Positions 2,122 through 51,361 of a DNA stretch of 64,000 nucleotides are shown in pieces. Source of the stretch: the human T2T-CHM13v2.0 reference genome, Homo sapiens. Under the pieces are notes generated by a model that made no database searches, was not told where the DNA came from, and saw nothing but the letters and a program-made list of their open reading frames with translations. The stretch's first letter is position 1. The number at the start of each line of letters is the position of its first letter. The translations under genes were made by a program, and so were the position numbers. Location: the NCBI RefSeq assembly GCF_009914755.1, contig NC_060929.1; one strand, 5' to 3'.

Positions 2122-2886
2122 AGAAATTTTAATTACTTTTGAGCGTAGCCAAGGGTTGATCATAGAAAACTAAAAAATCCTTGTTTCCTAATAAAATTCC
2201 TACATAGGTTATTATTTTGGAAAGAACTAGATCCAACAAAATTCTAAATGGTATTTAAAAAGCAAAATATTATGCATATAAGCTACATTTGATTTAAAGT
2301 TTTCCAGTTTTATTTTGGCTATCTTTAGATATTAATATTTAATAATAATTATTTATTATTATTAATAAGGCAATATTAATTTAGATATGTAGATATTAAT
2401 ATCTATCTTTAGATATTAATATCTTTAGATATTAGTCAAATTCTGTTTTGCAACAATCCTTTAAGGATGTTTTTATTCCTTATTTTGTTTTCTGTTGAAG
2501 AAAGACTTGTTTTCTGTTCAAGGCATTATCAGAATGGAAATTACAAAATACCAGTTGTATGTAAATCATACATATAAAATGTGCAAATGAATCATACCTG
2601 TTGGGCATAAGACTAATCAAAAGAGCTTTCCTAAATGAGGATCAAAATTGAATTAGAAAAAAATAATTATTTTTAAGAAGGTGTTTTTCTGGTTGTTCAC
2701 ATGGTATTGACTTTGACACAAAACTAGTTTTCTTAATATTTTATTATGTTCAACCAAGATAGAGTGGCAACCATAGTGATGCAACCAAGAAAATATAACC
2801 AAATGTAATAGTGAAATGAATCAAATAATTTCTCTTTACTGCTGTTTTTGTAGTTGAGAAAATAATGCAATATTATTTTTCAACAG

Positions 2887-6640: not shown

Positions 6641-9214
6641 GTGAGTGTGTTTATGCTAAATGGGTTTTGATAAATTATCCAGTTTTTTGATGAATCCTGC
6701 AGAGGTAGATAGCATTTTATGTTTAAAATCTGTAAGGAAAGATGCCTTTATTTCATATTAATGAAAAAGTAAGGATAAAAAGTCTCCTAAAACGTAAGCA
6801 CCTTTTATTATTAGAGATAAAATCCTTTTCATAATGTATATTTGTTTATGTATATATTATTAAGCCTATTTAGGTTCGTGTATGAGAGTCTGTTTTTGAA
6901 TTGAGTTTGCTGGTTTTAAATATTTATCTTTTTCCTTCAGGTGTGTAATGTCTTTGTGAGCCAGTCATTTCTGAAAGCTTATTGATAAATGGATATAAAT
7001 GTTCAATTGTGATTACCTGGATTTTTTCATTTCCTGTATGTAACTACAAACTCAATCTTATTTTTAATGAGTCATTTCTGTACAGACTGTAAAAAAATGA
7101 TATCCTAGAATATTTTTCGTCATTCACATTTTGCAGCCAATTAAGTTAAAGCAGGAGGATTTTCAAATGGTGATAACTGTTATGCAGGGGTTTTGTGAAG
7201 GAGGTAACTTGAGCTGAATATTCATCTGCGTTTTTCCTGCTGATTTTTGATCTTTGCTTTCAGCAAGGCCCCACATTATTTCAGTGTCATTCTTCTTATA
7301 TCTAAACTGAATAATATAAATTTTACAACAAAATGTTCAAAACGGATTGGTGCTTTTAAAAGAAAAAAAGAAAACTGATGACCAGCTTAGAATATGGAAA
7401 CAAAGATTTGTAGAAATTACTTGTCGTTTTTATTTGTATTAATTTTACATTTAAATTTAACATTATCTTATCCTGTAATTAAAACATTTGATTGTGCATA
7501 AAGACAAAAAGCGTATTTTCTTAAGATGTCTTTTTAGTATATATGCATCTAAGGAAGGCTGTATAGCATGGGAGTTTAAGACATTTGGTTATATATAGTC
7601 TTCTCCTGCCCCCTAAAGGCCTTAGTGTGTCTGTTTTACTGATATCATTTCATAGTCAATGTTTTTCAGTTCTTCTACCTTGTTTTTTTTAGTATTCTGT
7701 GTTTACTAAACCATAAGTTCTACCTCCTTAATGTTTTATTTTTCTACTCAGCCGTGTGTCTGGCATTCAGGCCAATATTTGTTAGGAGCCATTATTGTAT
7801 TAGGTCCAGCTCTTCAGTAGAGTATGGCATTATACCAACCAATGTGAATTTTTCTAGGGCTCTTAGTGGAGAATAGTAAAGAGATGAGTTTCTCCTCCTA
7901 GAAGAGGAAATCTAATTGTTTTTGTTTTTATCAAGGTCCTTTGGCAGTCGTACAGACTTGTTTCTGCCTTAGTCATATTCTGGGTTTGGACCTGTCAAGT
8001 GGTTTGACACTTATATTGAAGTAACTGCATTATCTATTCATTGTGAGTCACTCAGCCTCAAGAGCAATAATTTCAAGAATTTATTTATTTCTCTAAAACG
8101 TTTGTTTACTTTTGGTATCCTGTGTCCGTAATTTTGTCTTTTTTTTTTTTTTTAAACAGAAGTAACTTGGAACAATTTTTTTGAGATGTTGGCACAGTGA
8201 AAAGGAGCCTAATTTTGTTTTAGAATTATCTTCTTTCCATAAATTATACATTAATCATATTATCAATGGTTGATCTTTTATATTAAGTACATTTTATATC
8301 TATGCTACTATGTATGTCTGATCAGAGTCATCATTATGAATTTTAGCAGTTATAATCAGTTCTCTCTTTCTGACAATATGATCTATGTTATAATTGTAGG
8401 ACCTAGTGATTATGTCTGCTAGTACTAAAATCTTTATATCCCCTGTAACGTTTTTATGGCCAAGTGCATAAATAATTATAAGACTTGACTGATGAAGGCA
8501 AAAGTACTCCTATACTTTGCTATGTAACCAAATACTGAGTTATGTTTTGCCTTCTCCACATCATCCTTTAGTACTTAGTGGATAAACTCTATCTTTAGTA
8601 CTTTCTAAGTAGGTAGTTAAATGAGTTTAACTAGTATAGATGGATGAGATCTGAGTTTGATCTAGAAGAATTAATATGTAATTTGTGTGAACCAGTTACC
8701 TGTACTAAACATTGAACACAAGCAAGGGTAATATGAAAACTGTTCTCTATCTGTGCAAGGTTTTGTAGTCTTTGCACTGCTAGAATTGTTTATTAGCAAT
8801 GAAAGGGGCACTACTTTTTCCTCTTGGTGATATTTTGAGATACCCCTGAGGCTCTTGTATAGAATTTATAAGATGAATAATACATTTTTAAGATTTCTTC
8901 TGGGAACACTGAAATTCTTATTTTAAAATGACAGTTGATAAAGTTTTATAAAAGTTTTTATTTGTAGTTGTATTTATTATTTATTTAACGGAGGCATGCA
9001 CGTTTGGGGAAACCTTATTAGGTAATTGACTAGAATTTTTTTAATGTACCTTTATTCGTCTATATATATAGTCAGTTAATTGTGTCGACATGAATTAATA
9101 CAAAATATGATTGCAAAGAAAGCACTGGATGCTTTGGGAAAAAGGAGAAAAGAGCTGTTAAGCTGCCAAAATAGAAATGTTTTACTTGCAACATTTTGCA
9201 TTTTCTTTTCACAG

Positions 9215-9696
9215 GCCCAGTGCTTTTACAACAGAGGAATGCTAAGGGAGAATTGCCCTTGGATTATGTGGTTTCACCTCAAATCAAAGAAGAACTGTTT
9301 GCTATTACAAAAATAGAAGATACAGTGGAGAACTTTCATGCACAAGCAGAGAAACATTTTCATTACCAGCAACTTGAATTTGGCTCCTTTTTACTTAGTA
9401 GGATGTTGCTAAATTTTTGTTCAATTTTTGATTTATCTTCAGAGTTCATTTTAGCTTCCAAAGGGTTAACTCATCTAAATGAACTGCTTATGGCTTGTAA
9501 AAGTCATAAAGAAACCACCAGTGTTCATACTGACTGGTTACTGGATCTTTATGCTGGAAATATAAAGACATTGCAGAAACTCCCACACATTCTTAAGGAA
9601 CTGCCTGAGAATTTGAAAGTGTGTCCTGGGGTACACACTGAGGCCTTGATGATAACATTGGAAATGATGTGTCGGTCAGTCATGGAGTTTTCATGA
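9215..9696 (+). CDS. SLF1: SLF1 terminal coding exon (G)PVLLQQRNAKGELPLDY...MMCRSVMEFS*
   Basis: ttttcttttcacag|GC acceptor; ORF 9196-9696; stop TGA at 9694-9696 followed by a second in-frame TGA. Confidence 0.97.
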
Positions 9697-11977: not shown

Positions 11978-14719
11978 GCTGGAGAGGAGATTTCTGAGCA
12001 GTTAAGATTCAGCTTTTCCCCATGCATTGTTTACTGGCAGTTTCTTAAATCTCTTTGAAGTTAGAGTTTTCTAGGTTGTTAATTTTTAATTTCACTTTGC
12101 AGAATAAAATCATCCAAGTATATACATATTCTGTCATTTTATTCATTCCAAGATGACCAGAAAAACATTTATCCTCATAAAAGTCAAATGTGAAATTAAT
12201 TCCTTTGAATTCAGCATTTCTTGAACACCTACTCTGAACCAGGTGGTGTGCTTGACAAGGGCTAACTACAAAAAAAGAGGAAAGGCCCACAGTCTAGGAA
12301 GGTAAATAAGGCTTAAGTATTGTGAATTTTATTGTCTTCTACATCTGCTAAAAAATTAATTTCAGTAATAATTGGTGTTCTGTTTTAGTTTATAAATGTG
12401 AATATTCAAGTGTCCAGTACTTTAATCCTTTGATGAGTATTATTTTAGCAATTTTATTTTAGAGTGGATAGGGTGTAGGGTGTGCTTTTGCAGTCTTAGT
12501 ATTTTTAAGCAAGCACAAATGCATTACACTAAGATACTTTATATAACCTCCAGAAAATATCTGCCATTTTTGTTTATGCTGCTATAGAAAGTTAATTAAA
12601 TGAATACCTTCACATGAAAAAAATATCCATGGAATGTGCAATCCTTATGCCTTTATACACCTTTCCAGTTAAGCGGTGAACTTGATGAGAGCCTGTCACT
12701 GTTGCTCCTTAATCAGTAGGAAGGGGTCATCTTGAGTGACATGAGGCACTCTTTCCCTGAGGCATTTATCACGTAGCTTTCACGCCAATTGCACCTCCTG
12801 CTGACGTGGAGCTTGCAAAACTAGGAATGATAATTGTTTTTATGACAAATGTGGATTGAGTTAGAAAGGTCAGTGATAGCGTTATTAGAATTAAGCTCTG
12901 CCTGGTGTTGTCAAAACAGGAGACATGGAATTGTTAACTATTCCTTGTAAATCAAATTATGTTATCAGAAAATTCACCTTGTAGGTTAAAATGAACTGTA
13001 GTTGGAGAATATACTTTGGTAGTTATTTGTTGTGATATATATTTTGAAATTATTATAGGCTATAAATTAATTAGAAAAGGTTGAAGTGTTGTTTTACTTG
13101 GCTCTGAGTATACATTTTCAAGGTAAGGCAAATCCTACTCAAAGAAGACCTTTTCAAAGGAAATAAAACATTTTTAACATTATTGATTATTAGATGTTTA
13201 AAAAGTTTGTCCTCTTAAGTACTTATCTTACAGAACATCTAAAATATGTACAAGCTGTTCCTAATACTTTTTATATTTGAATGTATTACTATGTCTTTTT
13301 TAGTGTAAGTATATAGTTTTGATTATAAATACACTTGAACTATGTTTTTTAAAAAGCTTGAAATACAATCCTTAGTACTAGATATAAGTGATTTTTTTTT
13401 TTAGAATGTTAATACTTTTTGTTTTTCAAGAGATGATCCCTCCCACCCCCTTTTTAAAACAGAAGTATAATGAACTCTGTTCTGGGTTTTTTAACTACTT
13501 GCAGAGTTAAAGATCAACAATATTAAGTCAGCAAAGTGACTATTAAACCATATTTCTAACAAAATATGCAGTATTGTTATATATGTAATATATCATATTG
13601 CCTTTAACAAATATAGACCCCAAAAGCCCTTATTCAAGTATTTATAAATAGTTATTTCCAATTAGAATTAAAACATATACTTCCAAATTAGTCATTTTTG
13701 TATCATGGCCCCAAATCTTTTTAGATGTAGAACCCAGATTTGGTAGATCTAATCCTCTTCCTTGCCAAAGTATCTGAGTTGGATCAAGTGAACGTTAATG
13801 TATTATGGATGTTAAACATTAATAGAGAATGGCTCACTAGTTTGGGACATACAATTTCATTCTACCAAAGAGTAGAAATTTAAACAAAAAACAAAACAAA
13901 AGGTTTAGCACTTCCAAAAAGTCAGGTGCGCTGAACTGAAAATCTGGAATCCAGGTTTGAATTTATACCTATCATACTGTCGTTTATCTTGATAGTAGAT
14001 GAACTAAAATTACCACTGCTTCTCTATTCTGTCTCAAAGTGAAATAAATAGTAATATTGAAAAATCATTAATCTTAAAGTGTTGACAGATGAAAATAACT
14101 TAGTTTGTTGTCAGTGACTTCTCAACCTAAAGGTTAGGTCAACAGTGGTTTATGTCATGACTCTTAATAAATTTTTCTAATGACCAGAATAGTTTGATTT
14201 ATGATAGTTTTTTTGTTTTTGTTTAAAGGAATATTTATCTTTGTTATCTGGCTTCATCCTAAAGATGCATTTTTCTACTTTGCATTCATTCCTTTTTATA
14301 TTAGAGATAAAATTACCGAGCAATAAGTAAAATCTGGTAAAATTAAAATATGTGTTTTAAGGAATTTTCCAGGAAAACTTAAAAGCAGAATTGTAAAGGT
14401 GAAAACTGGACAAGGGGATGAGGGGAAAAATGGTTAAGAATCATTCTGCTTAAAGGAATCCAAAGGGTAAAGATTTCTAGGTACTGTTTATTATATTGAT
14501 GGAACTTAATGAAGGTATAAAATCAGACAAGCATGTAGACTAATCTCAGAAATAAACTGGGTCTTTGAAATTTTTGAATAATATTCGATAAACTAAACCA
14601 AAGGTCCAGATAATTGTTTTATAGAAGGTTCTTTTGGTCGAAATTCAATTTAATCAAAAATAAAGAATAATAAAATTCCAGTTCTAATGGTATCAGAAAC
14701 AGGCTAGATTTTTTTTCAC

Positions 14720-15525: not shown

Positions 15526-18096
15526 ACATAAATATATCATCTAAATTACATAAGGAAAAAGATTGTAAGTAAAAAATTGCTTATAGTGATTGTCTTTATG
15601 TGAAAAAATTTTGGATCTTTTTCACCTCTCCAGGTTTCTTTGTAATGATTTGTATTTGTTTATAATACCAGTATCCAATTTATTTTGAAAGTAATGCTCC
15701 TGATTTAAGTAAGAATCAGTCCTTGAAATTTTTCTAAAGTTGCCTTATTTAAACTGGCACCTACTGGATTTTTAAAAGGTAAATTACAGTTTTAATATAC
15801 TATTTAAAGTTGGATATAATTAAAAGTATAATTAGTATTATCTAACACAGATCTCAAAAAATACACTATACATGTGCTCCTTTTTTCAAAGTGAATCTGA
15901 CCACTTTACTGATATGGTTCTCTACTCTTTAAGACACTTCAAAATGGAGCCCCAAGTATGCTGAAGTGGGAACTGGGGGGACTTTACTCTTTTGTAGTAC
16001 TCTTAAATTGCTAAAGATTAAACTTGCTCATGTGGATACTATGTGGAGTCATAACATATCTTTACTTTGTGGTTTTAGTATTTATGGGACCTGAAGAATT
16101 ACTTGTTCTCTAGTGAGATTTTTCAGATACGACACAGAAAAGCAGGGAGAAACTGGTAAGATTAAATGATAGCTACATTTATTCAAAGATTGTACCTTAA
16201 ATGGCTTTGAAAGGATACTACTGTATAAAGAATTTTTTTCTTCTATCATCACTCTGAAAAAATATCCACTTTATAACTTATTATTTGCAACATTAATGCA
16301 GATACAAACAACCCTCTGTTGAGAGAATTCTGAGAGTGTCTTACCACAGCTCTCCAGAGCATATTATTTTGCACCTCTTCTGTGAAGGCCGGCAAAATAG
16401 CTTCTTGAAAGGTACTCTTTTAAGTAGTACAACTCAGAACAATCTTTTTACAGTTGTGTTTTGTATAAATATCCTGGATACCTACATGGTAACTATAGTA
16501 CAACCTGATAGTATCAATCTGTTTTTAGGGGGAAGATTTCTTACCTACCGGTCAGGGCTGTTGTCACAGTTATGGGAGGGAAATCAAGTACATATGCATT
16601 AAATGTACTATGTATCAAGTACGTAGCATCATAGTGTGCAAGATTGGATGGTGAATACTTGGTACCCCCAATCCATAAGTCAGAGTATTTTGCTTTTGCT
16701 TAAATTACCAAGCGCTGTATGTTTTGATTTTTAAAAAAAGTTTTTCTCTTACTTCTGAAAATGAATGTTTTTAAAAGTGATGTTAAGCAATTTCACACAA
16801 ATAATGGAACATCACATTAATCTGTTTAAAACCTCCTTTGTCAGATATGTATAGTGTTTTCTGGATGGCTTCTCGTGTGCTTCAAAGACCCTCTTATGTT
16901 TGCTAGGTTCTCTGTTAATGGAAACTGAAGTTTGTAAGAGTTTAAGGCCAAACGTAAGAGGTAGGTATACCATTGTGTTTTTTTGCTCAGAAATTGTTAA
17001 CTACTTCCTCTATTATAAAACAAAGATGACAAAATTACATACTCCGCCTTGTATAATAGCAAATAGACACTTCTTTGTAAAATTTTTCCAAGAGCTTATT
17101 AGTTCTTGACACCGATAAATTGTTTTCCATGGTTGCAGTGTTACAAGGTACACAGAGATTTTGACTTTTCATAATTACTACTATAGAAAAGAAGAATGTT
17201 TTGTGGGGCATGTAGTTATAAGGTTTCAGTTCTCTGATAGCTTTATTAAAAAGGGTTCTTTGAGCTTGGGACAAATATTGTCATTTCCTTCCCCTCATCT
17301 CTCTTCTGTGGTCCAGCTGTCTCTAACAATGCTTGACTATTCTCAGGTGTCTCCAGTAATGCAAAAGGCAAGTATGAGTAGTGAGGGCCAGGTGTGCTTT
17401 TTCTATGAATTTAGCATTTCCTCCAAACCTGTCACCATTTGAACTCTGGCAAAATAAAATCCCTCAAATGGACTCAAGCCCTTTTGAGCTTGTCTTTGAC
17501 TAGAAAGTGAAACTGAACCTATATTATCATCTTTCTTCACTAGTGGGAGCAAGTTCCCACTAGCAAGTGGGAGTGAGTTCCACTCAGCCAGGCCTCAGGA
17601 TCTCCTTAAATGTATTCCTCCAGAGAAAAGATAGTTTTCAGGTTCACTCATTGGTTCAGGTTGGCCACTCCTTTTCTCTTTGGAAGGAACATTGAAGAAT
17701 CTGTAGTAGGGGATAATTGCACTGCAATTTTAATTTTGCTACATACTGAAAAAACGTAGGCACGGCTACTTACGTAAACCATTTCCGCTTTCCTTGAAAC
17801 AAATCTTTCTGCCTAATATAATAAACACTTAATTGACTAAAGCAGAACAGCAGTGTATTTTACTTTGTAAAAAATGGAGTAATAATTTTTCAGTGACATT
17901 TGGAGGTACGGATAATCATATAAATTTAAAAACCTGTCTTTACAAAAATACTGCTTGTGCATGTAATAGAACACTTCTTTTGTATGGGTTTTTGGTGGTT
18001 TTTTTGTTTTTTTCTTTTTTTTTTTAAGCTTAGAATGTCAAAGAAGAGCCCAATAAATTGAAACTCATTTGAGGTCAGTTACAATATTTGATTGTT

Positions 18097-18102
18097 TTTA
18101 TT
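18097..18102 (-). terminator. Candidate distal MCTP1 poly(A) signal
   Basis: tttatt on + = AATAAA on -; U/GU-rich sequence downstream on the minus strand (18040-18065). Confidence 0.55.
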
Positions 18103-19128
18103 TTTTGATTCTTAACCCAGATCCCTCCTTTGAAAAGCACAGATAGAATCATTAAGTTCCAGGAAACCTTTCATGGTGCTCTTAGTTTCTACATTGTATG
18201 ATTGCTTTGGACATTTGATAGTTTTTATTTGCATACTATTTTTTAATGAGATTTTTCAATAGTATTTCTCAAATTTTAGCCATTCAGCTGAAGTAAATCT
18301 TATGTGACTGCCTCTATTCAAATTGCCACTATATAAAAGAAACTGAGGTACCAGAGGGTAACATTTTCACCAAAAAAAAAAGAAAAAAAAATGTTTTGTT
18401 TTCTTTCAGTGAGTTACACCAATCATCCCAGGAAAAAGAATTATAATTGAAAGGAATGACACTATTGTAAGAAAGAATTTACCACATTATTTTCTATGTG
18501 GTTTTAATTCATACTTTACTTTACTGAGCAATTAGAAAAGGCTGATTCTAGATACCCTAATCAAACCAACGAATAGACATCATCTGTACACTCACTCACA
18601 CTAGAGTGTGAAATCACGCTATTCATTTAAAGCCCAAGAATTTAAGCAAGTATTAATTTAGCAATACCTGAGACGTTTTTCAAGAAGTATAATGGTAGCT
18701 GTCTTTACTTGTATTTCTGGAGCAAAAAGGTATAACTGCCTTATACCTTTTTGTTTGTTCTTAATGCTTAGTCAACATTATAAACATTTAGGCCCATTTA
18801 ACAAGTTTATTCGCTGAAATTACTGCCTTTGAATAACATTAATACAAATGTAGACTACTTTGAGCATAGGAGACCTTAGATATGAGATCAAAGTGGAAAA
18901 AAAGCTCCTGTGGTCCCTAGATAAGCATTTACTTCTGAGTTTTTCTTCACTTTTAAATGCAGAATAAAAATTTTATAAAAGATAATTTTAGAAATGTATC
19001 AATTAAATTTGGCTCTCACTGTACTTCAACTCCAGATTTGATTTTAGTATACAATCATTGGTTTGACCGTTGTCTATAACAGGGTCATACAGTTGGTATT
19101 CGATAAATATATCACAGAGTCCTTTTAA

Positions 19129-19276
19129 GAATCTCCCAACTCAGATTATCCTAGTGCATATAGAATGTTCAAAAACTGATTGATTGATTGATAGGTTCTG
19201 TAGGAATTCCAGTTTTTGAACATTCTATATGCACTAGGATAATCTGAGTTGGGAGATTCAATCAATCAATCAGTTT
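19129..19276. repeat. Perfect 50-bp inverted repeat (19129-19178 / 19210-19259, 31-nt spacer) plus an overlapping 19-bp inverted repeat (19173-19191 / 19258-19276)
   Basis: gaatctcccaactcagattatcctagtgcatatagaatgttcaaaaactg is the exact reverse complement of 19210-19259. Confidence 0.97.
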
Positions 19277-20997
19277 GAGTCTGGAACAGTACCAGAATGA
19301 ATGAGAAGTACTATTATGTTCTTTTTGATAAGTGGGGAAAAATTTAAAAGCACAAATACGCATTTCTTATGAATTATCACAACGAATGTCAGTAATAGTT
19401 TATGAATATAAATAATGACTCAGTGAATTTACTCACTAAAAGATACTAAAGGAATATATTTAGTAGTTCACAATATCTATAATAGTTAGCAGTCCAAGTA
19501 GATGTTTGAGTGACATTCAGTCTCTTAAGAAATATTTACATCACAGATCTCAAAATGAAGGCAAGTCAGGCAGCTCTCAAGACAGAATTGCACCTATGTG
19601 AGAAGGGGAAAGAAATAAATAGTTAAAATTTTAACTATACATATTCTGTTTTCAGCCTGTGAATGTAGTAGTTTCTAAAAGCAATGAAGATTTCCCTGAA
19701 TATCACTTTTGTGCCTCAAGCTAGTTCTTATTCCTCTGTTAATGTCATTGGTTGCTCACCCCTCCAGAGGTATTTTCATATAAGAGTCAGAGTTTCAGGA
19801 AAAAGGTCTTATTTGTTTAAACCAAATCTGTTTTTCTCCAAGTGACATATAGTTTTTAAGAATATGCACACAATCCCTCATCAATCTCTGAACCACCAAA
19901 AAAAAAAAAAAAAGGAGTGCTGATTATACGTGGGAAAGATTATTTTCTTTTGTATTTAATACAGTGAATGTGTAGTCAGCATTACCATTGAACTAAACAT
20001 CTGAAATTTGATACAGTGAAACAAATTAGTCATCTGTTAATGGTTACTATCCACTAGATACATCTGAGGTTGTAGAATATCAGGCTTATAGACATTTGAG
20101 TACACATTGTCAGCACAGAACATAAAAGTCTCACATAAGGTATAATTGAAAGTTATTTCAAACAGTTATCTCATCAATAAACTTTCTGTAGTAACATCAT
20201 GTTCATGGAACATTATGTTTTTAGCAACAAACAGTGATGGTATGCAGACAGAAGCATGTCATTTTAAACATGATACATTAAATAAAGCATGTTGAGGTCA
20301 AAGCCTTTCTGTAGAAAGGGAATTTAATTGACATTCAAGCATAGTATATAAACAGATCAAAATAGTTCTATTATAAGAAATAGTATTTAACAACTTATCT
20401 CTAAAATAAAAATACTTTAAAAATCAGCTTCAATGAGATTACATTTATTGTTAAAGAATCTTCCTTTAGAGTGAAATATACATTTCTTTTAGCTTTTCTA
20501 TAGTTTTTCCAGTATAACCCCCACTTTTACCCCATCCAAGTTTATTATTAATAAAGTAGTGCAAAGCATTGTCTGCTGCAATTTCAACTGAGTGTAGTCC
20601 CCTACCAAGTCAGGGAAGTAAGACATTCTCAACCAACCAAATTATTTTTTCTCCAGAGTTATGCTCCCTTAGTATACCAGGGAGTGAGATATAAAAACTA
20701 CTTTAAGAGTCTTGGGAATGCAATTTTTAAGTATAGATTCTATGATAATAGTGAAACATTGATAAAGGCAACCACCACCCCCAAGCAGTTTATTTTATTT
20801 TACAAAACAGGTTTTCATGCATAATCAAGAATGATTTTTTTTAATAAATGAATGTAGTGAAACACTGGCATATCACTTAGCACACTGAATTCTCTACATT
20901 AAAATTCACACTAATAACAAAATCATAGTATGAATTAAAGCATTTCAGTAATCTAATGAGAAAGCAGGTTTTTTTTTTCTCTGAGAGCACTTGAGTA

Positions 20998-21003
20998 TTT
21001 ATT
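20998..21003 (-). terminator. Candidate proximal MCTP1 poly(A) signal
   Basis: tttatt on + = AATAAA on -, ~0.9 kb past the stop. Confidence 0.55.
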
Positions 21004-21885
21004 AAAATATTTTTAGATGCACAGATACAATCTGACACCAAAAGCGATATGGATATAGTTTCCTAGTATTTTTGATAACTGTACTTACTGGGTTGCTAAT
21101 TTGCTAACTAACTGTATAAATTAAAGTAGTGGTAGGTATAAAAATTCAGATAGGCAATCGTTTATAAACTGGCAGTATTTATGTTATGTAGTCCTGTAGA
21201 GATTTTAAGGTTTTAGATGGAATGATTGATTGAAATTCTATAAAGAAAACTTTGTAACCTTCTGAGTATTGATTCTCTTGAGGGAGTGAATGTACCTTCA
21301 CTTATTAGCTTAAAATTAGCCTAAGTCATACCTAAGTAATTTGCACAGGAGTGAATGTCGGGATCTAAAGCCAGAATATATGTTAAATTGAAATGTATCC
21401 ATTCCATTATTCAGGCTTTGGAATTTCCCTCCCTTTTGAAATGTATAAAACATAGAAAAGTGTAATGGATTACTTTTCAGATAAAAAATAGTCGCATTAA
21501 AAAAAAACTTTAAAATCAAATCGACATTTACAATTGATGTAGATTTAATCAGAGCACAGGTGAGTATTTAATCCACTAGTAATTAGATAAGAATATATCT
21601 TCCAGTGTTATCATTCTTATATTTGTTCTTTCAGTGTGTTATATTATTATCCACAGCTAACAAGGTTTTGACACAGCAGTAGCAAAACCTTTATCAAGTT
21701 GAGTCTGTACAATAGAAGTATATATTCAAAGACATATGCCTTTGTACACTATTTACAGATTCTCTCGATCATGATAAAAAGGCAAAATAAATAAAAAGCA
21801 GAAAGAAAGGAAATGCTGCTGAGGCTGAGGGCTTTTTCTTTTATCTTCCCAAACAGATGCTGGTCTCCTCAGTGCTGGGAGCTGG

Positions 21886-21957
21886 CTAGCCAAGATTGTT
21901 TTTCTTTCTTTTATATGGGCTATGAGAAGGATCTGGTTTCAGTTCTTGGTATTGCAC
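21886..21957 (-). CDS. MCTP1: MCTP1 terminal coding exon VQYQELKPDPSHSPYKRKKNNLG*
   Basis: Minus-strand tttaaacag| acceptor at 21958-21960; TAG at 21888-21886; in phase with the previous exon. Confidence 0.95.
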   Translation of the reverse strand: MQYQELKPDPSHSPYKRKKNNLG

Positions 21958-22900
21958 CTGTTTAAACAGAGTTCAGAGGAAGACTGGTCAGGTGGCCACT
22001 TTCTGGCAAAGAAAGGAACAGCAAAGGAATGAGAGACGGTGCTTGGGGGAAGAAAGTGCTCACTCTAGAAGCTGTATGGGATCTGCAGCTGAGATGCAGA
22101 AAGCAATAGAATGACAGAGCAAGAATAAGGGAAATCCTGTTGGAAAGTACATGGGGCCCTGATGTGAACTTTAGTAATGGTATTCACTGTCTATAACACA
22201 TTACATTAAAAGTAAAACCATCTACATCAATTTTTTAAAGGGCTCGATAATGGTTTTTTACAATTTATCGTGTGTTTGCTTAATACAGTCTTAATCTCCA
22301 TCCAGCCCACTGTCATGTCATAGCAAATGAAAAAGGTATCACTGTAACCCAGCTTCAGGATTTAAAAAAAAAAAAACAAACTTCTTTTATTTTGAAAACA
22401 GCTGATGGTTAATGGGCATTAACCTCAAAGGATTTTTGAGATATGCTCCACTCTTCAAAAAGCAGTCAGCTTTCCTCTCCTCATTGATCTCCAAAATATA
22501 CTTCTTCAAAACTTACTTGTAACTCTTGCAAATTCTGGAAAGACTTTTTTTTCTTAAATGTCCACTGGCATATTTTGCTTTCATCATCTAATATTCCTGT
22601 TTCCTCCCCTCAGGTCATACTCCCTGTCACAAACTCCAGCTGAACTAACTTGGAGGAGGATCTTCCCTGACAGCTCTGGTAGGTTCTTTATGCAACTGCT
22701 CTTTCTCCCATTCTCTGTAAGTGCTTCTTGGATAACACCCCAGGTGGGCTAAATTTCTGACTGGTAAAATCTGCTACACAGGCTTTATTAATTTTTACTC
22801 AGCTCTTCTAAAGCCTTTGAAATTAGAAGGATATAAAAGCTAAAACCCCATGCCACACTACATTAAAATAATAGCAATAATAATAACGAAACCTACATAC

Positions 22901-43254: not shown

Positions 43255-44945
43255 TCAATTCATTTCTTTTATTCATTTACTCAATAAATATTTATTGAAC
43301 ACCAACTACATATCAGACACTATTCTAGGCTCTGAGGATACTGGACTCTGGGGATACAATGATAAGCAAGATAGCACCAAGCAAATACATGGATAAACAA
43401 ACAAAAACAGCAGATAGTAAAAAGCGCAATGAAGAGACCTGAAATGGGTACATGGGCTGGACAGTGACCCAGTGGTCAGTGAGGGCTGCTCTAATGATAA
43501 AACTCTGTAGTTGAGAACAGTTTTGGTCAGGAAAACAGAAACTACTCTAAGTATTTCAAACAAAGGGAATTGAACACAAGGAAGTAGCTACACAGGTGAT
43601 GGAAGAATTGAGCATCAAATAGAGTGTGGCAGACATGAGCAACGCAGAAAGCCACTAGCAGAGGGACGTTACTGAAGCCCAGATGATGGTCACATGGACC
43701 AACTCTGTGGCAGGAGTGGCACCATGGAGCGGGTGCTTGGCAGTACAATATTTGGGATTATGGAGGGATCTGTCTGGTGGAGAACTGAACCACAGAGGAG
43801 ACCCAGTCACCTAGTCACTGCTGGATAATGTCCGTGAAACCAGAGAGACATATCAAGGGGGTTGAGGGAGAATGAGAGAAGAGAATTGTCCTGTTTTTTT
43901 CCTTCTTCCCTTTTCCCAGTCTCCTTCCAGTATCTCCCATTGGCCAAATCCCCAAAAGAATGTGATTTGCAAGAGAAGAGTAAGTGAGGATCACCTGGAA
44001 GTATACAAGCAAGAACCAGCACAAGATAACAATGATGGGAAGGAATTAACCAGGAGAAGTGCACGTAGTACAAATGTGCTAAGGCAAAATACAAACTCAA
44101 CTTGCTTGAGGAAACAAAGGATGCCTGAACATGGTAGCCAGTGAAGAGGGAGCACAGGATGACAGAGAAATAGTGCCACAGAGGGAGGCTTGTAACCAGA
44201 ATGAGGAGTAGAGATTTTATTCCAAAGCATGATGGGAAGCCATTGGAATGTTTTAAACAGAGGAAGAACATTACATTTTGTTTACTTGTTTTGTTACTAG
44301 CTCTTACACAGAATAATTTACATTTTTAAAATACCACTTAGGTAGAAATATACTGTGTGGGGAAAACAAGATAGTTAGGAGGCTACTACAGTAGCCCACA
44401 AAAAGATGATAGCTTAGACCAGGGTGGATATATTCGGGATGTTTTGAAAGTAAAGTCACCATAGACATATTACTAGATTGAATGTGGAAACCAAGAAAAA
44501 CAGAAATCAGAGAATTGCTTACATGTTTGGCTTGAGCAACTGGGTAAATGAGACTTAGTTTTTTGAGACAGGGTCTCACTCTGTCACCCAGGCTGCAGTA
44601 CAGTGATGCAAACATGGCCCACTGCAGCCTTAACTTCTGGGCTCAAGCAATCCTCCCACCTCAGCCTCCTGAATAGCTGGGACCACTGGCACATGATACT
44701 ACACTCAGCTAATTTTTTGTTTTTTGTAGACATGGGGTCTTGCCATGTTGCCCAGGCTGGTCTCGAACTCAAGCAATCCTCCTGCCTTGGCCTCCCAAGG
44801 TGCTGAGATTACAGGCATGAGCCATCACACCTGGCCGAGGCTGATTTTACTGCCCTAGGGAAGAGTGGAGCAGGAGCAAGCTTGGGAAAAGGGCAGATGA
44901 AGAGTTGTGTTTGGGCTGTGAAAAAGTATGAGGTGCCCAGTGGAT
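43255..44945 (-). mobile_element. L2 fragments interrupted by an old LTR-like segment (~43490-44030) and an Alu
   Basis: attcatttactcaataaatatttattgaacacc (antisense L2 3' end); gggaagccattggaatgttttaaacagagg; gttaggaggctactacagtagccca. Confidence 0.65.
44558..44836 (-). mobile_element. AluJ
   Basis: Antisense Alu gagacagggtctcactctgtcacccagg...acaggcatgagccatcacacctggcc. Confidence 0.88.
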
Positions 44946-50904: not shown

Positions 50905-51361
50905 TTATATAGATAAATAAAGGCAATGTAAATATAGATTAACCCTGAGAACTTAGTGTAACCAAAATCACAATCTTGAATTAACCTTGAAAGATTAATA
51001 CCAAAATGCCAGCCTCTTTCACACATACATACACACACACCCTTGCATGCATATTTTAAATGAGAGACTGCAAGAAACACAGAGTCCATGAAGATCTCTG
51101 TGTGAACTCCTTCTGAGTCATTTTCAGGAGGTAATAGAGGTAAATTCTGATTACTTAACTGGCAAAAATACACTACGTAGTTGTATTTGATTTACTGAGA
51201 TAACATGGAGAGGTCACTGCATTATTTTTTAACTTGCAGAAAAAGTTCATTAACTCATTGAGAGTCTACTCTGTACTTGGTACCATGCCAGGCATAGGAT
51301 AGAGAGCTAATCCCAACAGACATGGAGACCCTGACTTCATGATGCTTATAGTCAAGTGAAA

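What the first reader, a model, noticed from the sequence alone, without database searches (positions are those of the whole stretch)
19129..19276. Perfect 50-bp hairpin in the distal MCTP1 3' UTR: an isoform-specific dsRNA element
Seen: 19129-19178 and 19210-19259 are exact reverse complements (50/50) around a 31-nt loop. A second 19-bp inverted repeat (19173-19191 / 19258-19276) overlaps the first, so two competing folds exist. The element lies between the proximal poly(A) hexamers (20444-21003) and the distal ones (18097-18806), so only long-UTR transcripts carry it. Established: uninterrupted duplexes of this length can be substrates for ADAR, Staufen, PKR and Microprocessor/Dicer; L2-derived hairpins gave rise to miR-28 and miR-151. 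Inference: alternative polyadenylation could switch a dsRNA signal on or off, or this could be a nascent small-RNA locus. The arm with its (ttga)n tail loosely resembles an L2 3' end.
Basis: partly seen in the sequence, partly recalled or inferred. Interest (0 to 1): 0.8.

Follow-up and report, generated by a model that had tools for sequence, protein, structure and literature searches.

The report
Young perfect hairpin in MCTP1 3'UTR
A real, single-copy, perfectly paired 50-base hairpin sits in the tail of the human MCTP1 messenger RNA; it looks like a recent DNA-copying accident of a well-known kind and not a transposon relic or a known RNA gene, and whether it does anything is untested.

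Summary
Positions 19129-19178 and 19210-19259 are 50/50 reverse complements around a 31-nt spacer. The 19/19 second inverted repeat also exists. No other complex-sequence perfect inverted repeat in 264 kb exceeds 21 bp. The MCTP1-sense RNA folds into a 51-bp stem (-95 kcal/mol, z = -13.8).

The arm sequence occurs nowhere else in the T2T genome. It has no target-site duplication, no Rfam family and no likeness to (TGAA)n-tailed L2-like 3' ends.

The two blocks are circularly permuted reverse complements of one 61-nt period, with sharp edges. This is the footprint of a two-jump replication template switch. Zero differences over 63 nt, 13 of them outside the stem, put its age under about 50-60 My.

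Such hairpins are common: 6,054 with 30-55-bp stems arose in genic regions on the primate-to-human lineage, and 0.9% are annotated miRNAs.

The "competing fold" loses by 49 kcal/mol. The poly(A) hexamers occur at chance frequency. The RefSeq-selected transcript already carries the hairpin.

Verdict: a real, young, probably incidental dsRNA element and a likely ADAR substrate. It is a new member of a known kind. Interest 0.3.

The parts
19129..19178 (-). Left arm on + coordinates; 3' arm of the hairpin in the MCTP1 (minus-strand) RNA
   Evidence: Exact reverse complement of 19210-19259, 50/50. 36% GC, no CpG, 14 A in mRNA sense.
19179..19209 (-). 31-nt spacer, the apical loop. 19179-19191 is an (ATTG)3A microsatellite and 19192-19209 is unique sequence.
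   Evidence: The loop holds no UGU/GUG motif in mRNA sense.
19210..19259 (-). Right arm on + coordinates; 5' arm of the hairpin in the MCTP1 RNA
   Evidence: 18 A in mRNA sense.
19173..19191 (.). Left copy of the second inverted repeat: the last 6 nt of the left arm plus 13 nt of loop microsatellite
   Evidence: 19/19 complementary to 19258-19276. Read here as a mutational footprint and not as a structural element.
19258..19276 (.). Right copy of the second inverted repeat: the last 2 nt of the right arm plus 17 nt of flank, (TCAA)3 then CAGTTT
19129..19276 (.). The whole rearranged block. The left 63 nt (19129-19191) and the reverse complement of the right 67 nt (19210-19276) are both exact substrings of one 61-nt periodic string.
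   Evidence: Identity to the periodic string extends 0 nt on all four sides.
18075..21885 (-). Annotated 3'UTR of NM_024717.7 (3811 nt, 31% GC) that carries the hairpin
   Evidence: Hub annotation. AATAAA at 18097-18102 lies 22 nt before the annotated end.

Best explanation
The element is a genuine, single-locus inverted duplication. It arose within roughly the last 50-60 million years, on the primate lineage, and could be much younger. The cause was a replication or repair template-switch error inside the MCTP1 3'UTR.

One block, arm plus (ATTG)n, was copied as a reverse complement next to itself. The copying involved two template jumps, so the copy is circularly permuted relative to its source. 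That permutation is why a second 19-bp inverted repeat overlaps the 50-bp one.

Every MCTP1 transcript that runs to the annotated distal end, including the RefSeq-selected one, then contains a 50-51-bp perfect A-form duplex with a loop of about 30 nt.

Inferred, not shown: the most likely molecular consequence is promiscuous A-to-I editing by ADAR (32 adenosines lie in the stem), which would loosen the duplex. The duplex is long enough to bind PKR or Staufen and far too short for MDA5. It is most likely a tolerated by-product of mutation with little or no selected function.
For: Reality and rarity.

Single locus: a whole-genome BLAST of 19100-19300 finds only itself and its own inverse. A 36-mer allowing up to 3 mismatches finds 2 of 2 places, which are the two arms, and 0 controls. 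The flanks 18500-19128 and 19260-19900 also match only themselves.

Footprint: the 63-nt left block and the reverse complement of the 67-nt right block are exact substrings of one 61-nt period with sharp ends. Neither block is a contiguous reverse complement of the other, so a second jump is needed. That jump has 2-nt GA/TC microhomology if the left block is the source, or 6-nt AAACTG if the right block is.

Youth: there are no differences over 63 nt. Thirteen of these nucleotides lie in the loop or flank, where pairing is not used in the stable fold, so selection on the stem would not keep them perfect. The 95% upper age is 48-60 My at 0.5e-9 per site per year, and there are no CpGs.

Precedent: template-switch mutations make perfect hairpins in one event. 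On the primate-to-human lineage 53,666 putative events were found in genic regions, 31,007 made new stems, and 6,054 have 30-55-bp stems (PMC10710096, sections 9 and 14 read).

dsRNA thresholds: edited human dsRNAs favour more than 30 contiguous bp and short loops, PKR needs about 30 bp, and MDA5 needs more than 300 bp (PMC11838218, passages read).
Against: - No outgroup sequence could be examined. The absence of the repeat in an ancestor, which is the defining test for a template-switch mutation, is not shown. The source arm is unknown.
- A single four-point switch does not explain the whole block, so a two-jump event or two successive events must be assumed.
- There is no microhomology at the first switch point.
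- Template switching can also re-perfect an existing stem (PMC8794818, abstract read). The zero-difference age bound is therefore soft, and an older hairpin is not excluded.
- No expression, editing, CLIP or small-RNA data were available, so the ADAR step and the 'no selected function' step are inference.
- The genome DNA search skips very common words, so searches do not exclude ancient high-copy repeats.
Confidence: 0.65

Rival explanations
1. It is an APA-gated dsRNA regulatory element. Only long-UTR MCTP1 transcripts carry the duplex. The duplex recruits Staufen (decay or localisation), PKR or ADAR, and so gives the long isoform a different fate.
For: The duplex is long enough for these proteins (Staufen by established knowledge). 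It lies 2.6 kb into a 3.8-kb UTR. AATAAA/ATTAAA hexamers exist upstream of it in mRNA sense.
Against: The hexamers occur at chance frequency and equally on the antisense strand. Per the hub table, the RefSeq-selected transcript and another exon model both include the hairpin. The non-structural 13 nt of the duplication are as perfect as the stem, which argues for youth over selection. The paper searches MCTP1 + 'alternative polyadenylation', + 'RNA editing', + 'ADAR' and + 'inverted repeat' gave 3, 5, 22 and 0 papers. None is about this element, judged from listings plus one passage check.
Confidence: 0.12
2. It is a nascent or unannotated small-RNA locus. Microprocessor and/or Dicer cut the hairpin into miRNA- or siRNA-like RNAs, which would also destroy the long-UTR mRNA in cis.
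For: The stem length falls in the 30-55-bp 'miRNA-like' class of template-switch hairpins, and the loop exceeds 10 nt. Template switching has produced at least 18 human miRNAs (abstract). Rfam's best hits are miRNA hairpin models.
Against: The Rfam hits are far below threshold (50 bits against a gathering score of 100). They score the same on both strands and are to a plant family, so they reflect hairpin shape only. The stem is 50-51 bp against a preferred 35 bp (passage). There is no UGU/GUG in the loop and no CNNC in the 31-nt 3' flank. The base rate for hairpins of this size class being annotated miRNAs is 0.9%. No second genomic copy exists that siRNAs could target in trans.
Confidence: 0.07
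3. It is transposon-derived: either two inverted L2 3' ends (as for mir-28/mir-151) or a MITE-like DNA element with long terminal inverted repeats.
For: There is a tetranucleotide run next to the arm. The best, non-significant alignment of the L2-like profile in 18900-19500 happens to fall on 19143-19186.
Against: That alignment scores -1.0 bits, E = 0.6 in a 601-nt search with filters off, while the same profile finds 13 sites at E<1e-3 in 264 kb. The repeat unit is ATTG/TTGA, not TGAA. Arms that are 100% identical are incompatible with two insertions older than about 60 My. There is no other copy in 3.1 Gb. No direct repeat flanks either 19129-19259 or 19129-19276.
Confidence: 0.04
4. It is an assembly artefact of T2T-CHM13.
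For: None was found. The possibility is listed because only one haplotype was seen.
Against: The structure spans 148 nt, which by general knowledge is far shorter than the long reads behind the assembly. It has a unique 18-nt spacer segment and sharp, internally consistent junctions. Per the hub table, RefSeq transcripts are annotated straight across it.
Confidence: 0.02

Closest known systems
Template-switch-mutation (TSM) hairpins of the primate lineage (Monttinen, Frilander and Loytynoja 2023, PMC10710096; Monttinen and Loytynoja 2022, PMC8794818)
   Same: A perfect reverse-complement repeat sits next to its source in a genic, transcribed region. The stem of 50 bp falls within their 30-55-bp 'miRNA-like' class, with the loop central. 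It is not a simple repeat and not a transposon.
   Different: The ancestor state was not examined here. The block needs two jumps (a circularly permuted copy), whereas their basic four-point model has one. The element lies in a 3'UTR, while their TSM-derived miRNAs are enriched in introns. The locus is not named in their main text, nor in the one supplementary file held.
Non-repetitive intramolecular dsRNAs of the human transcriptome (dsRNAscan catalogue, PMC11838218)
   Same: It is a highly paired, non-repeat duplex in a 3'UTR. Its 50 contiguous bp exceed the median of edited non-repetitive dsRNAs (30 bp), and the loop is short. This is the profile that paper associates with ADAR editing.
   Different: Whether this locus is in their catalogue, or is edited, could not be checked. 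The duplex is much shorter than their putative MDA5 ligands (more than 300 bp).
L2-derived hairpin miRNAs (mir-28, mir-151; recalled, not fetched)
   Same: It is a hairpin formed by two inverted copies of one sequence inside a host gene.
   Different: The arms here are identical and single-copy. They show no detectable similarity to (TGAA)n-tailed L2-like 3' ends. No such Rfam family was among the 3 matches at E<=1 in 17500-22500.
Canonical pri-miRNA hairpins
   Same: It is a stem-loop with flanking single-stranded RNA and an apical loop longer than 10 nt.
   Different: The stem is about 15 bp too long and perfectly paired. The loop and flank motifs checked are absent. It is not a member of any Rfam family.

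Membership tests
Template-switch-mutation hairpin | A reverse-complement copy lies close to its source sequence | tested here: met
   50/50 and 19/19 inverted repeats lie within 148 nt.
Template-switch-mutation hairpin | The repeat is absent in the parent/outgroup sequence while the source region is conserved (criteria in PMC10710096, section 14) | not testable with these tools
   No primate or mammalian genomes are held. The own genome 'has no relatives here'.
Template-switch-mutation hairpin | The whole change is explained by one four-point switch | tested here: inconclusive
   One switch explains the 50-nt arm. The extra 13-17 nt need a second jump, because the blocks are circular permutations of a 61-nt period.
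Template-switch-mutation hairpin | Not mostly simple repeat (less than 50% overlap) | tested here: met
   Only 13 of 63 nt are (ATTG)n.
pri-miRNA / Rfam miRNA family | Scores above the gathering threshold of a curated family | tested here: not met
   The best hit is MIR7994 at 50 bits against a threshold of 100, identical on both strands. mir-3045 scores 21 against 90.
pri-miRNA / Rfam miRNA family | A ~35-bp stem with an apical UGU/GUG and a downstream CNNC (the motifs are recalled; the stem preference is from the passage) | tested here: not met
   The stem is 50-51 bp. There is no UGU/GUG in the loop and no CNNC in the 31-nt 3' flank.
pri-miRNA / Rfam miRNA family | Discrete ~22-nt products | not testable with these tools
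   No small-RNA data are held.
Inverted L2 3'-end pair | The arms resemble the sequence family that precedes (TGAA)n tails | tested here: not met
   The profile was built from 20 tails plus 6 hits. As a positive control it finds 13 sites at E<1e-3 in 264 kb. On the locus the best score is -1.0 bits, E = 0.6. Calling that family 'L2' rests on recall.
Inverted L2 3'-end pair | The arms are diverged as expected of independent ancient insertions | tested here: not met
   0 differences in 50 bp. The 95% upper age is 60 My or less.
MITE / DNA transposon with terminal inverted repeats | Multiple copies in the genome and a target-site duplication | tested here: not met
   Only the two arms match in 3.1 Gb. 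The flanks CCTTTTAA versus AATCAATC or GAGTCTGG are not direct repeats.
ADAR-preferred dsRNA | More than 30 contiguous bp with a short loop (PMC11838218) | tested here: met
   50-51 contiguous bp and a 29-31-nt loop.
ADAR-preferred dsRNA | Observed A-to-I editing | not testable with these tools
   No RNA-seq or REDIportal data are held.
MDA5 ligand | More than 300 bp of near-perfect duplex (PMC11838218) | tested here: not met
   The duplex is 50-51 bp.

The most novel reading that the evidence does not exclude
A template switch created, in one step and recently in primate evolution, a perfect 50-bp dsRNA module in the long 3'UTR of a neuronal calcium-sensor gene. That module has since been co-opted. 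It would act either as a switch that marks distal-poly(A) MCTP1 transcripts for ADAR, Staufen or PKR, or as a young hairpin source of small RNAs whose excision destroys the host mRNA. The transient 19-bp alternative helix seen in nascent-transcript folds would time the folding of the main stem.
Probability: 0.07. Interest if true: 0.6.

Novelty: new member of a known kind. Interest (0 to 1): 0.3.

Why it matters
If the reading is right, this is a clean example of how replication template switching drops a ready-made long dsRNA into a mature mRNA. The mutational footprint, a circularly permuted copy, is still intact. The hairpin is single-copy and perfect. In the 264 kb scanned here, no complex-sequence inverted repeat exceeds 21 bp. 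It would therefore be a convenient natural substrate for asking how cells handle a 50-bp perfect cytoplasmic duplex that is not Alu-derived. It does not open a new class, since thousands of comparable hairpins have been catalogued.

Tried and rejected
1. Known RNA family: rejected. The Rfam scan of 17500-22500 at E<=1 gave 3 matches, all sub-threshold.

2. Multicopy element: rejected. The caveat is that the DNA search skips very common words.

3. L2 3'-end origin: no repeat library is held, so I built a profile from 20 (TGAA)5-tailed loci plus 6 first-round hits. All-against-all BLAST of the 20 bodies barely clustered them: 2 of 20 had one partner each. The profile still recovered 13 sites at E<1e-3 in 264 kb and nothing at the locus.

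4. Competing-fold or pseudoknot idea: rejected. The cost is 49 kcal/mol. By reasoning, not computation, the two helices would cross with zero-length linkers at the base of a 44-bp stem.

5. Poly(A) hexamers as evidence of alternative polyadenylation: rejected as evidence.

6. Literature: the searches found nothing on this element. The search for the 'long 3'UTRs in neurons' dsRNA paper found 0 papers. The search aimed at the 'purifying selection of long dsRNA' work returned 4 other papers.

8. A reference was not accepted as a genome pattern, so an approximate-match enrichment test of short arm words was not run.

9. I did not search papers for the arm sequence as text.

Full report
**1. The observation**

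Positions 19129-19178 and 19210-19259 are exact reverse complements (50/50) around a 31-nt spacer. Positions 19173-19191 and 19258-19276 form a second exact 19-bp inverted repeat that overlaps the first. The pairing ends abruptly on both sides.

It is not a chance feature.
- A 29-mer of the arm had 0 matches in 100 shuffles of the window.
- The next independent perfect inverted repeat with a spacer of 100 nt or less in the 64-kb window is 15 bp.
- In a further 200 kb of the same gene the longest one in complex sequence is 21 bp. Everything longer there is (AT)n or (TG)n.

In MCTP1 sense, the RNA 19100-19300 folds into a 51-bp stem with a loop of about 29 nt. The energy is -95 kcal/mol against -39 +/- 4 for shuffles, z = -13.8. 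As single-stranded DNA it is -56.8 kcal/mol, z = -14.3.

**2. Where it lies**

By the hub's annotation, the last exon of NM_024717.7 spans 18075-21957 and the coding part ends at 21886.
- The 3'UTR is 3811 nt and 31% GC.
- The hairpin occupies UTR nt 2627-2757, ending 1054 nt before the annotated transcript end.
- The annotated end is preceded by AATAAA at 18097-18102.
- A second annotated exon model, 18075-19593, begins at a proper polypyrimidine-AG acceptor and also contains the hairpin.

However, the UTR holds 8 AATAAA and 7 ATTAAA, against 5.9 +/- 2.4 and 5.6 +/- 2.3 in first-order Markov simulations. The antisense strand of the same stretch holds 9 and 7. They therefore say nothing about real proximal poly(A) sites. 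"Isoform-specific" remains an untested possibility. The default annotated mRNA carries the element.

**3. What it is not**

*Not a known RNA family.* An Rfam scan of 17500-22500 at E<=1 gave three matches, all below threshold. The best is the plant family MIR7994 at 50 bits against a gathering score of 100. It scores identically on both strands, so it reflects generic hairpin shape.

*Not a multicopy element.*
- A whole-genome search of the T2T assembly with 19100-19300 returns only the locus and its own inverse.
- A 36-mer allowing up to 3 mismatches returns only the two arms, with 0 controls.
- Both flanks match only themselves. This tool skips very common words, so ancient repeats are not excluded by those two calls.
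- No direct repeat flanks the block.

*No support for the "L2 3' end" lead.* No repeat library is held, so I built my own test.
- (TGAA)5 occurs 5,942 times in the genome against 108 for the reversed control.
- I fetched 20 single-hit sites and aligned the 100 nt before each tail.
- I added 6 first-round hits and searched 264 kb. The profile finds 13 sites at E<1e-3, several of which were not used to build it. That is the positive control.
- In 18900-19500, with filters off, the best alignment scores -1.0 bits, E = 0.6.
- That these tails belong to L2 is my recollection, not a tool result.

Independently of that test, the tetranucleotide here is ATTG/TTGA and not TGAA. Two independently inserted ancient elements could not be 50/50 identical.

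**4. Anatomy and origin**

Call the arm a+m (m is its last 6 nt, AAACTG) and the following (ATTG)3A run t.
- The left block 19129-19191 reads a-m-t (63 nt).
- The reverse complement of the right block 19210-19276 reads m-t-a-m (67 nt, with t sharing 2 nt with a).
- Both are exact substrings of one 61-nt periodic string, offset by 44 nt. Identity to that string stops with 0 nt of extension at all four ends.

One block is therefore a circularly permuted reverse complement of the other. The second 19-bp inverted repeat is simply the part of the permuted copy that falls outside the 50-bp arm.

No single contiguous reverse-complement copy gives this arrangement. It needs two template jumps.
- If the left block is the source, the copy ran 19178 to 19129 and then restarted at 19191, with GA/TC microhomology (2 nt).
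- If the right block is the source, the copy ran 19259 to 19210 and then re-annealed through AAACTG (6 nt) to the second CAGTTT and added the 13-nt run.

This pattern, short inverted copying next to the source with sharp edges, small microhomologies and more than one jump, is what replication template switching produces. I infer that mechanism. I have not shown it, because no outgroup sequence is available.

Published work shows that such events create perfect hairpins in one step. On the primate-to-human lineage it reports 53,666 putative events in genic regions. Of these, 31,007 made new stems and 6,054 have 30-55-bp stems with a central loop (PMC10710096, sections 9 and 14 read).

**5. Age**

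There are no differences across 63 nt of repeat and no CpG in the arms. At 0.5e-9 substitutions per site per year, the 95% upper bound is about 48-60 My. At faster rates it is 11-30 My.

Thirteen of the identical nucleotides lie in the loop and the 5' flank, where they are unpaired in the stable fold. Selection for pairing would not have preserved them, so their perfection argues for youth rather than for a maintained ancient structure.

The bound is soft, because template switching can also re-perfect existing stems (PMC8794818, abstract read).

**6. How it probably behaves as RNA**

At equilibrium the 50-bp stem wins outright. Forcing the 19-bp helix costs 49 kcal/mol, a relative weight of about 1e-35. 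The two helices cannot coexist, because they would cross with zero-length linkers. That point is reasoning, not computation.

The 19-bp helix is the best fold only for a nascent transcript ending between about 19179 and 19165. It is displaced once about 24 nt of the 3' arm exist. It could be a brief co-transcriptional intermediate at most.

The finished duplex has 50-51 contiguous pairs and a short loop. That matches the profile of edited human dsRNAs: more than 30 contiguous bp, short loops, and a median of 30-31 contiguous bp in edited sets. It exceeds the ~30 bp needed by PKR and is far below the more than 300 bp considered for MDA5 (PMC11838218, passages read).

The stem holds 32 adenosines, 18 and 14 per arm, with three UAG triplets. 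I therefore expect ADAR editing to be the main thing that happens to it. This is inference.

As a Microprocessor substrate it looks poor.
- The stem is about 15 bp longer than the preferred 35 bp (passage).
- There is no UGU/GUG in the loop and no CNNC in the 31-nt 3' flank.
- Only 0.9% of hairpins of this size class are annotated miRNAs.

**7. Literature**

Four searches combined MCTP1 with another term.

| Second term | Papers found |
|---|---|
| inverted repeat | 0 |
| RNA editing | 5 |
| alternative polyadenylation | 3 |
| ADAR | 22 |

From the listings, none concerns this element. For one of them I checked the passage, and MCTP1 appears only in its reference list. MCTP1 occurs 0 times in the main text of PMC10710096 and of PMC11838218, and 0 times in the one supplementary file held for the former.

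**8. Verdict**

The feature is real and striking in its local context. It belongs to a known and numerous class. It is a young, single-copy inverted duplication of template-switch type that places a perfect 50-bp duplex in the MCTP1 3'UTR.

- The structural core is supported.
- The L2 link is not.
- The competing folds are not.
- The hexamer-based isoform specificity is not.

Function is open. My best estimate is an incidental, tolerated ADAR substrate (confidence 0.65 for the whole statement). A selected dsRNA switch (0.12) and a small-RNA locus (0.07) are the live rivals.

Noticed in passing
L014:9078-9218 (G000:C5:95333078-95333218): An imperfect hairpin of about 140 nt lies in an MCTP1 intron. 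It has two perfect segments, 21 bp (9078-9098 / 9198-9218) and 20 bp (9103-9122 / 9159-9178). It is the longest complex-sequence inverted repeat in the 200 kb sampled. It may be an older event of the same kind or a small transposon.
   Followed up: no
window 18004-18025 and 18372-18391: A T-run and an A-run form an 18-20-nt inverted pair 347 nt apart. They straddle the annotated MCTP1 transcript end at 18075 (I3-I6). This is low-complexity sequence and probably trivial.
   Followed up: no
window 43264-43353 (-), 51247-51358 (-), 12209-12302 (-): These are matches to my profile of (TGAA)n-tailed, presumably L2/MIR-type 3' ends, at E = 4.9e-13, 3.4e-05 and 0.0057. The third lies just beyond the annotated SLF1 3' end (12005).
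   Followed up: partly
window 2326-2424: An AT-rich cluster of short perfect palindromes sits in an SLF1 intron: 15 bp at 2391-2405 / 2410-2424 and 13 bp at 2326-2338 / 2393-2405.
   Followed up: no
window 18723-18753: A 13-bp perfect inverted repeat with a 5-nt spacer lies in the distal MCTP1 3'UTR, next to the AATAAA at 18806-18811.
   Followed up: no
whole genome (G000): (TGAA)5 occurs 3027 + 2915 times, against 59 + 49 for the same letters read backwards. That is roughly a 55-fold excess, consistent with this unit being a retrotransposon tail.
   Followed up: partly
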